From Eledone cirrhosa (lineage: Eukaryota): a DNA stretch of 64,000 nt. Numbering within the stretch: position 1 is the stretch's first letter; each line of letters starts with the position of its first letter. This document shows, piece after piece, positions 4,070 through 41,381 of this stretch. Where the stretch lies: assembly GCA_964016885.1 (NCBI GenBank), contig OZ024740.1, forward strand, positions 169,012,001 through 169,076,000. The letters are read 5' to 3'. The position numbers and the translations under genes were made by a program. Below the pieces are notes generated by a model. It was not told where the DNA came from. It worked only from the letters and a program-made list of their open reading frames with translations, and did not search any database.

Positions 4070-4770
4070 AGAAATACCACTGAGCAGAAAGTGTCAAATA
4101 CTGTCAAGATCACCATCAACGTGCCGCTGAGGACCCACCCTTCATGTCAAGCATCATCTCCAGTGATGAGAGTTGGGCTATGAGTTTAACCCTGAGATGA
4201 AGCACCAGTTGACACAGTGGAAAAGCCCTTCATCCCCATGACCAAAGACAGAGCCACAGCTCAATCAAGAGCATGGTCATTGTTTTTTTCAACATCTGCA
4301 GTATTGTGCATCCAGAATTCATTCCCCAGGGCCAGACCGTCAATTGAGAGTTCTACTGTAATATTTTGAGGTGTTTGAGGGAAGACGTTTGGCAAAAGCA
4401 ACTGGATCTGTGGAGCGCACAAATTGGATTCTTCATGACAACAAAGCACTCTGTCATCAAGCTCTCCTCACTCATGAGTTTCTCACCAAAAACAACATTG
4501 TATCGCTTCCATACCCACCCTATTTTCTATATTGAGTATCTGCTGGCTTCCATCTCTTCTCCAAGCTGAAAATGCAGCTCAAAGGTTGCCATTTTAACAC
4601 TTGATGAGATCCAGAGCAAACAGTAGAAGGTCCTTGACTTGCTTACGGAAAACGACTTCCAGGCTGGATTCCAAAAGTGGCAGGTACGCAAGGTGACTAT
4701 TTGGAAGGAGATGATGTTAAAACTTAGTTGTTTTTTTAAACATAACTAGTCTGGGAACTTCTGATATCAC

Positions 4771-11625: not shown

Positions 11626-11833
<208 letters not shown>

Positions 11834-15272: not shown

Positions 15273-15375
15273 ATAGGAACCAGTAAGACCCCGACAGCTG
15301 AGCTCAAGCCGTTTCGACGGCTAATTCTGGACTAAATGAAAATTTATCCTGGTATTTAAATAGCCGATCTTCTCA
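15273..15375 (-). repeat. 5' pseudo-LTR (partial tandem copy of the 3' end)
   Basis: Identical by eye to 11731-11833. Confidence 0.92.
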
Positions 15376-21211: not shown

Positions 21212-21557
21212 GGAGGCACATGGCTTAGTGGTTAGAGCATTGGGCTTGCAATCGAAAGGTTGTGAGTTCAATTCTCAGACTGGGTGATGTGTTGTTTCCT
21301 TGAGCAAGACACTTTATTTCACATTGCTCCAGTTTACTCAGCTGTAGAAATGAGATGATAGGGACTGGGGTCCCTATCATTCCACTGCAAAGTGGTCGTG
21401 GAGGTGCCACGGCAAAAAAGCACCCAGCACTCACTGTAAATGAGGTTGGTGTTAGGAAGGGCATCCAGCTGTAGAAATCAAGCCAGAATCAGTTCCCGTC
21501 CTACCCTTGCAAGCAGGGAAAAGCGGACGTAAAATGAAATGATGAAAATGATGATGA
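21212..21557 (+). mobile_element. Full-length tRNA-derived SINE, CORE-like middle, RTE-derived 3' tail
   Basis: A box TGGCTTAGTGG, B box GAGTTCAATTC, CCTTGAGCAAGACACTT...CAGCTGT core-like segment, tail shared with RTE 3' UTRs. Confidence 0.88.
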
Positions 21558-26481: not shown

Positions 26482-26620
26482 TCAGGACCCTGACGGCTGA
26501 GCTCTGGATCTAGTTGTTGAAACAGCCGGAGCTCAGTCGTCATATTACCCCCTCAACTATCCCAAGTATCGAGTACTCTGGTGAGTAATGGTCTAAATGA
26601 TTTTTACTGCCTCCAATCTG
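26482..26620 (+). mobile_element. Penelope-related pLTR hairpin plus 5' leader fragment
   Basis: TGACGGCTGAGCTC...GAGCTCAGTCGTCA followed by sequence similar to the reverse complement of 15200-15273. Confidence 0.65.
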
Positions 26621-26635
26621 ATATATATACATATA

Positions 26636-27020
26636 TCATCATCATCATCATCATCACCGTTTTACGTCCGTTCTTCCACGCTAGCATGGGTTAGACGGGT
26701 GGTCCTGTTGTGGGCAGTGTCTGGTCGGCTGACCATGCCTTGCTCATACAGGAACTGATTTGGCTTGATTTCTACAGCTGGATGCCCTTCCTAACACCAA
26801 CCTCATTTACAGTGAGTGCTGGGTGCTTTTTCGTGGCGCCTACACGTCCACTTTACAGTGTGGGGTGGGTGCTTTTTTGCTGTGGCACCTCCACGACCAC
26901 ATTGCGGTGTGGGGGCATATTGTCTATATGCTTCAGCTTGTACCCATGGGAGGTCGGGTACTCTGTATTACTGCGTGACGCCAGAGGTCACGGTCGTGTG
27001 TCATTGCCTTTGAGAGGTGT
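26636..27020 (-). mobile_element. RTE family B 3' end
   Basis: Reverse complement of 46710-47104. Confidence 0.9.
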
Positions 27021-27707
27021 GGTATATACATCTTATATATTTTTATGTGAGCTGATAGAGGGCAGTTTAAGGATTTACAGAAACCCAAGAAGCTAGATTT
27101 ACCATCTTTCTAGCGGGTCCGGGTATGCTTTTTACATTCATTTGATTTATTGATTTATTGATATTTTATCTGAGTGTCCCGAATCTTCCAGATCGCAATT
27201 TTTCGGTCGTATGGTTGATTATAGACATGTTCTATGTGTGACGGTATTTTAACGATAGTTATAGCTCTGATTTATCTGAATTATTGAGCCCTCTGCCGCT
27301 CATTTCGAATTTTGTTTATCGTGAACTCGTGCGCCGATTTTTCGATACTCAATTATTCTACTATATATATATGTATATAAATATATATATTTATATATAT
27401 ATGAATTTGTTTTGCGAGGTTTTTGATATGAAATCGTGTGTCGAAACAAATATTGTTATACTTGGGGAGGGTCATGTTGTTGTAATAATATTGTCAGAAA
27501 TAATAACAGAACACACTCACTGTTTGGTTGGTTTTCGCTTCTGTATCTTTTATATCTCCATAGTTAATTCATTTGGTCCTCAATGTTTATCATTGACTGA
27601 CCAACGGTAAAAAATACAGATATAAATATATATATACAGTCTAACAAAGTTCTTTTGTTGCAGTGGTACTATTATGTTTCCTCCTGTTGTATTGTATATA
27701 TATATAA

Positions 27708-27750
<43 letters not shown>

Positions 27751-27775
27751 TGTAATAAACAACATAAGCCAATTA

Positions 27776-27848
27776 TTCCATTTACCAAAGATTTCACGAA
27801 AACAGACGTGCTCAACAGAGACGTCTGAAATCGCTCATCAGAATGAAA
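27776..27848 (-). ncRNA. Canonical-core type I hammerhead ribozyme in a ~108-bp insert between (TA)n tracts
   Basis: UUUCAUU-CUGAUGA-long stem II (CAGACGU/ACGUCUG)-GAAA-UCUUUG-GUA-AAUGGAA. Confidence 0.78.
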
Positions 27849-27895
<47 letters not shown>

Positions 27896-27898
<3 letters not shown>

Positions 27899-27952
27899 AA
27901 CGAGTAGCACCCTGACGGCTGAGCTCAAGCCGTTTCGACGGCTAATTCTGGA

Positions 27953-27956
<4 letters not shown>
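27896..27956 (-). repeat. Solo Penelope pLTR fragment in (TA)n
   Basis: Matches 11733-11791. Confidence 0.85.
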
Positions 27957-27987
<31 letters not shown>

Positions 27988-27991
<4 letters not shown>

Positions 27992-29342
27992 TCATCATCA
28001 TCATCATCATCGTTTAACGCCCATTTTCCACGCTAGCATGGGTCTGGACGGGAATTGTCCCACTTGAGGCAAGATTGGTTGTCTTGCTCAGGACTGTCTG
28101 GCGGGTTTTCTACGGCTGGATGCCCTTCCTAACACCAACCACGTTTACAGTGTGGACTGGGAGGTTTTTACCGTGTTACCTACACAGCCACATTACAGCG
28201 TGGACTGTGTGTTTTATTGTCATGACACCTACACGTCTGGCGGGTTTTCTACGGCTGGGTGCCCTTCCCAACACCAACCACGTTTACAGTGTGTACTGGG
28301 AGGTTTTTACTGTGTTACCTACACGGCCACATTACAGCGTGGACTGTGTGTTTTTTTGTCGTGACACCTACACGACCTCATTTGTTTCGGATTGGATGTT
28401 GTGGTACCAACATAACTTCACATTTAAGGGGGTGGTGTGGATGGGGGTGGGGGTAGTGGGACGGGGTGTATTTTGTTAGAGGTTCCTACTGACTGTAGGT
28501 TTCGCTTTGGCGGGTCTTCTGTATTACTGTTTAGCGCCAAAGATCTCGGTCCAGTGGCATTGTCTTGGAGAGGTGTAAGTGTGTGAGGTCGGAATTTATC
28601 AAGTCGTCCCAGGTTTTTCTGGGTCTGCCTACTCCGTGGCTATCATCTATTTTTATTGCCCTGCACTTTTTTATACAGCTGTCGTCTTTCATGTGCATCA
28701 CGTGACCATACCAACGTAGTCTTCTCTCGAGTAAACAACATCTGATCCCTCTTATTTCTAATTTTTCCCTCAGTTCGTTTATGCTTTGCCGTTCACGTAT
28801 ATTACTATTACATATCCAGCGGAGCATGCAAGCTTCGTTCCTCTCCAGTCTGTGTATATCCTCTGCACACAATGCCCAGGTCTCACTGCCATGTAACATT
28901 GCTGTTCGTATGCAGGCATCATAGAGCCTGCCTTTCATTTTTAGAGAGAACCCTTTAGCGGCCAATAGTGGTATAAGCTCTCTGAACTTTTTCCATCCCG
29001 TTCTGACTCTAGCTACTGTACTTTCAGAGCACCCTCCCCCACTGCTGATTTTGTCACCCAGGTAACGGAAGCTGTCCACTATTTCTATAGAACCATCTGT
29101 GCAATGGAATGAGCTAGTAACCTGTGGGCACTTGCTGCTACTTATTGCACTAGAGCACCGGACACATATAAAATCTATATTCTTAGTTACCTTACCTGTG
29201 ATCCCACTACATCTTTTATGCACCTATTCTTTGCATTTGGGACATAAAATGGAGTTTCTACCTACTCCTTTCTTACACACTGAGCATGGCCATTTCCCAG
29301 ATGGGACTGGTGTCCTATTTTCCTTCCTACAAACTAGAACTT
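27988..29342 (-). mobile_element. RTE family A 3' portion with ~140-bp duplication in the 3' UTR
   Basis: 230-aa ORF 28531-29223 similar to the 7995 ORF C-terminus; (GAT)n tail. Confidence 0.92.
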
Positions 29343-37750: not shown

Positions 37751-38146
37751 TCATCATCATCATCATCATCATCATTTTATGTCCGCTTTTCCCTGCTTGC
37801 AAGGGTGGGACGGGAACTGATTCTGGCTTGATTTCTACAGCTGGATGCCCTTCCTAACACCAACCACATTTACAGTGAGTGCTGGGTGCTTTTTTTATGT
37901 GGCGCCTACACGACCACTTTACAGTGTGGGCTGGGTGCCCTTTTACCGTGGCACCTCCACGATAACTTTGCAGTGGAATGATAGGGACTGGGGTCCCTAT
38001 CATCTCATTTCTACAACTGAGTAAACTGGAGCAATGTGAAATAAAGTGTCTTGCTCAAGGAAACAACACATCACCCGTTCTGAGAATTGAACTCACAACC
38101 TTTCGATTAAAAGTCCAATGCTCTAACCACTAAGCCATGTGCCTCC
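37751..38146 (-). mobile_element. tRNA/CORE-like SINE with one extra ~42-bp tail unit
   Basis: Reverse complement of 21212-21557 plus an additional repeat unit. Confidence 0.88.
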
Positions 38147-41243: not shown

Positions 41244-41381
41244 AATGAAGGAGGTGTGGTAAGGAACCAGATGGACCATAACGCACCAGAGTACTCAATA
41301 CTTAGGGTAGTAGAGTGGGTAATAGTCCAGAAATAGCCGTCGAAACAGCTTGAGCTCTGCCGTCGGGGTCAAACATTTTCC

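What the first reader, a model, noticed from the sequence alone, without database searches (positions are those of the whole stretch)
27746..27853. Solo canonical hammerhead forming almost the whole of a 108-bp insert in (TA)n
Seen on the minus strand: stem I UUUCAUU/AAUGGAA, core CUGAUGA (27841-27835) and a long stem II with perfect CAGACGU/ACGUCUG. These are followed by GAAA (27795-27792), a short stem III and a GUA triplet (predicted cut between 27783 and 27782). Pure (TA)n lies on both sides and a solo Penelope pLTR follows about 40 bp away.
Basis: partly seen in the sequence, partly recalled or inferred. Interest (0 to 1): 0.72.

Follow-up and report, generated by a model that had tools for sequence, protein, structure and literature searches.

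The report
Truncated Penelope retrotransposon end with hammerhead
The hammerhead-shaped RNA motif is really there, but it is the cut-off, slightly decayed end of an ordinary jumping gene (a Hydra-type Penelope-like element) with hundreds of copies in this genome, and this copy is likely a poor self-cutter.

Summary
All named hammerhead parts are at the stated coordinates. The insert is not a stand-alone ribozyme: it is the last 108 bp of a Penelope-like retroelement, cut short at its 5' end and lying in (TA)n. A 20-nt family marker occurs 392 times in the genome; a 25-nt marker shared with sister families 11,119 times. In two loci the motif is collinear with an upstream endonuclease ORF, in one also with a truncated RT. 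A complete sister element shows all Hydra-clade protein motifs, pLTRs, an inverted copy and a tail. Across seven subfamilies the core is fixed, N7 varies and stem II shows four compensatory pairs, so the motif was kept in the parent elements. 'Canonical' is overstated: 10.1-11.1 is G.U, and this copy has U15.2 where 66 of 71 relatives have C, which removes the predicted stem III. The 'perfect' 7th stem-II pair is a rare substitution. The neighbour is a 58-bp tip of a second Penelope family, not a whole pLTR. Cleavage and expression are untested. Earlier notes of this scan reached the same kind of reading on other DNA of this genome. New member of a known kind; low interest.

The parts
27746..27853 (-). 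5'-truncated 3' end (pLTR tip) of a Hydra-clade Penelope-like element, ending at the family's short 3' end, without the tail
27842..27848 (-). hammerhead stem I, 5' strand
27835..27841 (-). core C3-A9 (CUGAUGA)
27796..27834 (-). stem II: 4 bp starting with G10.1.U11.1, 3x3 U internal loop, 7 bp, small apical hairpin
27792..27795 (-). core G12-A15.1 (GAAA)
27784..27792 (-). stem III, 3 bp with UUU loop; position 15.2 (27791) is U here, C in 66 of 71 other copies
27783..27785 (-). GUA triplet; predicted cut between 27783 and 27782 (untested)
27776..27782 (-). hammerhead stem I, 3' strand
27746..27775 (-). pLTR end downstream of the hammerhead, shared with the sister families
27854..27896 (.). 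pure (AT)n, 21.5 units: target microsatellite at the truncated end
27695..27745 (.). (TA)n, 92% pure: target microsatellite at the element's 3' end
27897..27954 (-). separate insertion: 58-bp 3' tip of a second Penelope-like family; holds only the 3' half of that family's hammerhead (GAAAC, long stem III, GUC)

Best explanation
The 108 bp are the 3' tip of a Hydra-clade Penelope-like retroelement, likely left when reverse transcription primed in a (TA)n tract stopped after about 108 nt, and the hammerhead in it is a passenger that is predicted to cut poorly or not at all in this copy. Shown: homology to hundreds of dispersed copies; collinearity with an endonuclease/RT ORF; two fixed 3' ends, the window copy using the shorter; inverted head-to-head pairs with one tail; core fixed and stem II covarying across subfamilies; five differences of this copy from the family majority. 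Inferred from published PLE work: the element's GIY-YIG nuclease nicks AT-rich DNA and its RT starts at one of two internal sites on the RNA, which gives the short and the tailed end. Inferred: in intact tandem elements the hammerhead cuts the precursor RNA, probably as a dimer or with the element's protein, and selection acts on it there, not on dispersed tips.
For: 392 exact matches of a 20-nt family marker and 11,119 of a 25-nt marker shared with sister families, reversed controls 0. Of 16 ten-kb stretches, 6 hold the endonuclease ORF and first UTR part, and 2 of these (L109, L136) run collinearly on to the hammerhead. L136 has a truncated RT with an inverted tailed copy abutting it; this RT is 78% identical over 277 aa to the 711-aa ORF of complete element L161, built as inverted pLTR, pLTR with hammerhead, tail, 5' UTR, ORF, long 3' UTR, pLTR, tail. 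That ORF has RWK, DKT, CxCx5C, no CCHH, and CxxC / CxH near the end, the Hydra features of PMC8557442 section 11. 19 of 20 head-to-head pairings carry the tail on one arm only. Stem II: 57 of 63 cells paired, compensatory changes at 4 positions; slid controls 19-35 paired, 0-1 compensatory. Stem III pair probability 0.001 here against 0.16-0.18 in copy L011; loop-3 self-duplex +0.1 against -5.1 kcal/mol.
Against: No cleavage assay. Nearest-neighbour energies leave out the core's tertiary contacts, and 15.2 is U (paired with A) in some active natural hammerheads (PMC1636495 passage), so U15.2.G16.2 need not abolish cleavage. All core bases are intact in this copy. No full-length, intact ORF of this exact subfamily was found; clade motifs at the N-terminus come from the sister family. 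Pfam gave no RT or GIY-YIG hit and the single-sequence model was unusable. Subfamilies share ancestry, so the four compensatory positions are not independent trials; three subfamilies rest on 1-3 copies. Clade placement is by motifs and by eye, with no tree.
Confidence: 0.92

Rival explanations
1. A short non-autonomous hammerhead element (retrozyme monomer or SINE-like unit) of about 108 bp that moves as a unit with the help of Penelope proteins.
For: Several copies begin within about 25 nt of the same 5' point and share the same 3' end. Animal retrozymes carry type I hammerheads and are argued to derive from PLE pLTRs (bioRxiv 10.64898/2026.07.22.740005, part 1 of 5 read).
Against: 5' ends form a ladder from a few nt to several kb upstream; the short ones were favoured by a 108-nt query. 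No head-to-tail tandem array among the hits; neighbouring pairs are inverted. The 5' junction falls at an AT-rich stretch that resembles the target.
Confidence: 0.05
2. A retained, active ribozyme that cuts a host transcript running through this locus on the minus strand.
For: Core, triplet and stem I are intact; stem IIa pair probability is 0.98-1.0.
Against: Its differences from the family majority include one in stem III; the best predicted fold pairs core bases with the GAAA/stem III segment. Published metazoan PLE hammerheads showed no monomer cleavage (PMC4209133) or needed the element's protein (PMC11167929).
Confidence: 0.03
3. A chance hammerhead-like fold in AT-rich repeat DNA.
For: No Rfam hammerhead match; the loose CUGANGA..GAAA pattern is common (11 in the window, 4.8 expected).
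Against: Fixed core with free N7, covarying stem II and a fixed place at the 3' end of ORF-bearing elements.
Confidence: 0.005

Closest known systems
Hydra clade of C-terminal EN+ Penelope-like elements, e.g. Hydra-1_Obim (Craig et al. 2021, PMC8557442; read: passages, section 11, supplement part 2 of 59 and search hits)
   Same: RWK, DKT, CxCx5C, no CCHH, C-terminal GIY-YIG-type EN, (TA)n targets, type I hammerhead near the 3' end. File S2 lists Hydra hammerheads with a non-G-C position after A9 and before G12 (U.U in many) and short stems III, some with a UUU loop. The L161 ORF reads closely like the printed Hydra-1_Obim protein (by eye).
   Different: Hammerhead sequence differs from those in the File S2 table I read; stem II is longer (about 14 positions with an internal loop); 3' UTR is 2.3 kb or more and microsatellite-rich, so elements exceed the usual <3 kb; tail about 64-70 nt rather than 30-40.
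[quoted passage not shown]
   Same: Type I topology in the pLTR, long helix II, small helix III, most copies dispersed singly from truncated elements, pairs on opposite strands 100-700 bp apart.
   Different: G10.1-C11.1, called highly conserved there, is G.U here; loop 3 (UUU) is not palindromic, though sister family C (CC-ACU-GG) is nearly so.
Poseidon element PAc of Anolis (Frangieh et al. 2024, PMC11167929; read: parts 1-2 of 4)
   Same: Two fixed 3' ends explained by two internal RT start sites; AT-rich target; pLTR hammerhead.
   Different: Other clade; there the hammerhead overlaps the ORF start, here it lies about 240 nt before the ATG (L161); activity here is untested.
Animal non-LTR retrozymes (bioRxiv 10.64898/2026.07.22.740005; read: part 1 of 5)
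   Same: Non-coding DNA with a type I hammerhead related to PLE pLTRs.
   Different: Retrozymes are tandem monomers; this is a dispersed truncation of a coding element.

Membership tests
Type I hammerhead ribozyme | Core C3-A9, G12-A15.1, U16.1, H17 in type I order | tested here: met
Type I hammerhead ribozyme | Stems I and II, with covariation among homologues | tested here: met
   stem II compensatory at 4 positions; stem I only a one-sided G.U/A-U change
Type I hammerhead ribozyme | Stem III formed in this copy | tested here: inconclusive
   pairs possible (A-U, U.G, C-G) but predicted probability 0.001
Type I hammerhead ribozyme | Site-specific self-cleavage | not testable with these tools
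   needs an in vitro assay
Canonical metazoan hammerhead (PMC4209133) | G10.1-C11.1 pair | tested here: not met
   11.1 is U in this copy and in 69 of 71 others
Canonical metazoan hammerhead (PMC4209133) | Helix II of 4 bp and palindromic loop 3 | tested here: not met
   long interrupted helix II, UUU loop
Penelope-like elements, EN+ | Single ORF with RT and C-terminal GIY-YIG-type EN upstream of the motif | tested here: met
   collinear in L109 (EN) and L136 (RT part and EN); atlas neighbours carry HTH_animal 25-97%, GIY-YIG 26-58%, RVT_1 18-77% of members; Pfam itself blank
Penelope-like elements, EN+ | pLTRs, inverted 5'-truncated copy, tail at one end | tested here: met
Hydra clade | RWK and DKT motifs | tested here: met
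   in sister-family ORF L161; this subfamily's N-terminus was not recovered
Hydra clade | CxCx5C linker, no CCHH, CxxC and CxH near the EN end | tested here: met
   in this subfamily's own EN and in L161
Hydra clade | Insertion into (TA)n | tested here: met
   65 of 89 3' ends followed by a TA-rich 12-mer; window flanks
Hydra clade | Length generally under 3 kb | tested here: not met
   L161 unit about 4.7 kb between hammerheads; a tendency in the paper, not a strict criterion
Hydra clade | Placement in the Hydra clade on an RT tree | not tested
   reference proteins were seen only in a supplement and compared by eye
Non-LTR retrozyme | Head-to-tail tandem monomers each with a hammerhead | tested here: not met
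   single copy in the window; neighbours among hits are inverted

The most novel reading that the evidence does not exclude
The thousands of dispersed hammerhead tips of this lineage are not inert: copies caught in host transcripts pair through loop 3, or are folded by the element's protein, and cut host RNAs in trans; this copy is one such site, working without the G10.1-C11.1 pair.
Probability: 0.04. Interest if true: 0.6.

Novelty: new member of a known kind. Interest (0 to 1): 0.12.

Why it matters
By itself little: it is one decayed tip among hundreds. The lineage is a handy natural series for an open question, namely whether PLE hammerheads must cut for the element to move: seven subfamilies keep the core while 10.1-11.1 takes four forms (G.U, U-A, C.A, C.U), stem II gains an internal loop and loop 3 goes from nearly palindromic to UUU, and complete 711-715-aa ORFs exist for in vitro work.

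Tried and rejected
Rfam at gathering score over the window and up to E=10 over 27600-28100: no hammerhead family. Pfam on P0001, L161 and L136 ORFs: nothing meaningful. PDB sequence search: no real hit. AlphaFold without alignment: pLDDT 33, discarded, no fold search run. Sequencing runs: no RNA holder listed. Contigs of four runs (at most 2 samples, 1 study) laid on the insert show many relatives and the family letters at 27801 and 27809, but no listed piece settles this locus. The whole-fold energies printed (-12.4, -14.1) leave out the apical hairpin and are not used. Rejected: a hybrid hammerhead with the neighbour (its stem I and III strands do not pair with the insert's); the plus strand as the functional strand (folds, z -3.6, but has no core); Naiad (EN is C-terminal), Neptune, Nematis and Penelope/Poseidon (no CCHH). 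Paper searches; the last was mostly noise, and no measured rate for G10.1.U11.1 or U15.2.G16.2 was found in them. Look-ups of earlier notes near the window and by sequence were blank.

Full report
Observation. Stem II is 4 bp (starting with G.U), a 3x3 U loop, 7 bp and a small apical hairpin. The right flank is pure (AT)n, the left 92%. A descriptor written after the fact finds this one site in the window against 0.03 per shuffle. Rfam has no hammerhead hit.

It is a repeat. A search of the own 3.0-Gb genome gave 1249 candidates, 40 scored, 52 matches including the window itself, most at 92-97%. Exact patterns give 392 matches for a family marker and 11,119 for the 3' half shared with sister families, with 0 in reversed controls. 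These are lower bounds and count the two arms of inverted pairs apart. Relatives extend past the insert at both ends. They have two fixed 3' ends: the one the window copy uses, and one about 64 nt further on. Of 89 ends scored, 42 have the tail and 65 run into TA-rich DNA. In 20 head-to-head pairings from 18 loci (one locus gives three pairings), 19 have the tail on exactly one arm.

The parent element. Four searches walked upstream through a long, microsatellite-rich stretch. Of 16 ten-kb stretches, chosen because they held upstream parts, 6 carry an endonuclease ORF followed by the same UTR; in L109 and L136 the chain continues on one strand to the hammerhead. L136 also holds a truncated RT with an inverted, tailed copy against its 5' end. 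That RT part is 78% identical to the 711-aa ORF of L161, a complete sister element: (TA)n, inverted pLTR, pLTR with hammerhead, tail, 5' UTR, ORF, 2.3-kb 3' UTR, pLTR, tail. So the tail is the start of the 5' UTR. The ORF has RWK, DKT, CxCx5C, no CCHH, and CxxC / CxH near the end. These are the Hydra-clade features in section 11 of PMC8557442, and the protein reads closely like Hydra-1_Obim in that paper's supplement (by eye). Pfam is blank; the atlas neighbours score 0.96-0.99 and carry PLE-type families on part of their members. No intact ORF of the exact subfamily was found and no tree was built.

Was the hammerhead under selection? Within the family all positions are about equally conserved, which says nothing. 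Across seven subfamilies (115 copies; sizes 68, 24, 10, 6, 3, 2, 1, and 1 unassigned copy left out) stem II positions 2-10 pair in 57 of 63 cells with compensatory changes at four positions, against 19-35 paired and 0-1 compensatory in slid controls. With anchors outside the core, C3, U4, G5, A6, G8 and A9 are kept in 93-96 of 98 copies while N7 takes all four bases; 31 of 129 anchors lacked the 5' anchor and were not counted for that half. The subfamilies are kin and the loci were picked by similarity, so this shows retention in the lineage, not a probability. Position 10.1-11.1 is not a kept pair (G.U, U-A, C.A, C.U). The hammerhead table of PMC8557442 shows the like in published Hydra elements, so it is a clade trait and not canonical in the sense of PMC4209133.

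This copy. It differs from the majority of 71 other near-full copies (72 of 92 distinct hits were near-full) at 5 of 108 places: the 5' junction base, 27809, 27801, 27791 and 27769. 27809 makes the 'perfect' seventh pair and is shared by 2 of 71. 27791 turns C15.2-G16.2 into U.G; the predicted stem III probability is 0.001 against 0.16-0.18 in copy L011, and the loop-3 self-duplex +0.1 against -5.1 kcal/mol. Against a firm 'dead' call: the core is intact, the model ignores tertiary contacts, and U at 15.2 (paired with A) and GUA occur in active hammerheads (passages of PMC1636495).

Mechanism. Shown: a 5'-truncated pLTR tip at the short 3' end, in (TA)n. Inferred from PMC11167929: the nuclease nicks AT-rich DNA and the RT starts at one of two internal sites, giving short and tailed ends; copying stopped here just past stem I. 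In that paper the hammerhead needed the protein and was not required for insertion in vitro; in PMC4209133 single metazoan motifs did not cleave. I therefore take this copy to be a passenger. Expression could not be examined.

The neighbour. 27897-27954 is the tail-less 58-bp tip of a second family, up to 96.6% alike to copies elsewhere. Longer copies show a hammerhead with a U3-A8 core and a long stem III, and at L102/L103 an endonuclease-like ORF upstream with an inverted tailed copy. The window fragment lacks the 5' half of that core. It is likely a separate insertion in the same TA tract.

Earlier notes of this scan, seen after my reading was fixed, describe Hydra-clade ends elsewhere in this genome and a small hairpin in the tails. 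Tailed copies of this lineage do hold a 7-bp hairpin (55 copies, changes mostly in the loop, no covariation between families; z about -2). The window copy ends before it.

Verdict. A real hammerhead motif of a known kind, at its expected place in a known clade of retroelements, in a truncated and slightly decayed copy. I read only parts of each paper, and one of 59 parts plus search hits of one supplement; unread parts may list closer relatives.

Noticed in passing
window 11734-11791, 15276-15333, 41324-41369: Further tips of the neighbour's Penelope family, whose longer copies carry a U3-A8 hammerhead with a long loop 2 and a long stem III.
   Followed up: partly
L161 about 4290-4380; also L162-L165, L171, L172, 300-440 nt after the ORF stop: Near-complete family C elements carry a second, degenerate hammerhead in the 3' UTR with GUG at the cut triplet, likely a captured old pLTR.
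   Followed up: partly
L021 1613-1633, L161 1560-1580 and 53 other copies: 7-bp hairpin at the start of the tail, just past the short 3' end; absent from the window copy.
   Followed up: partly
L161-L165, L172: Six copies with open 713-715-codon frames, near-identical to each other: a young, possibly still mobile sister family.
   Followed up: partly
L109 3300-4700, L136 4400-8600: The 3' UTR of this lineage is full of (TA)n/(TG)n tracts that draw in other insertions, so copies are broken up by nested elements.
   Followed up: no
window 27990-28400 and 26636-26914: Repeats that begin with (ATC)n and hold 48-49 and 139-bp tandem units, common in fetched loci; RTE-like LINE 3' ends by recall, not tested.
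   Followed up: no
window 21219-21282 (+) and 38080-38137 (-): Two tRNA-like matches of 33-36 bits, probably heads of tRNA-derived SINEs.
   Followed up: no
window 26500-26620: Looks like another Penelope-type end with tail, related to the neighbour family, on the plus strand (read by eye).
   Followed up: no
L039 about 240-650 and 1150-1190: A different element with a CCHH-type GIY-YIG reading frame and a possible U3-A8 hammerhead behind it (read by eye).
   Followed up: no
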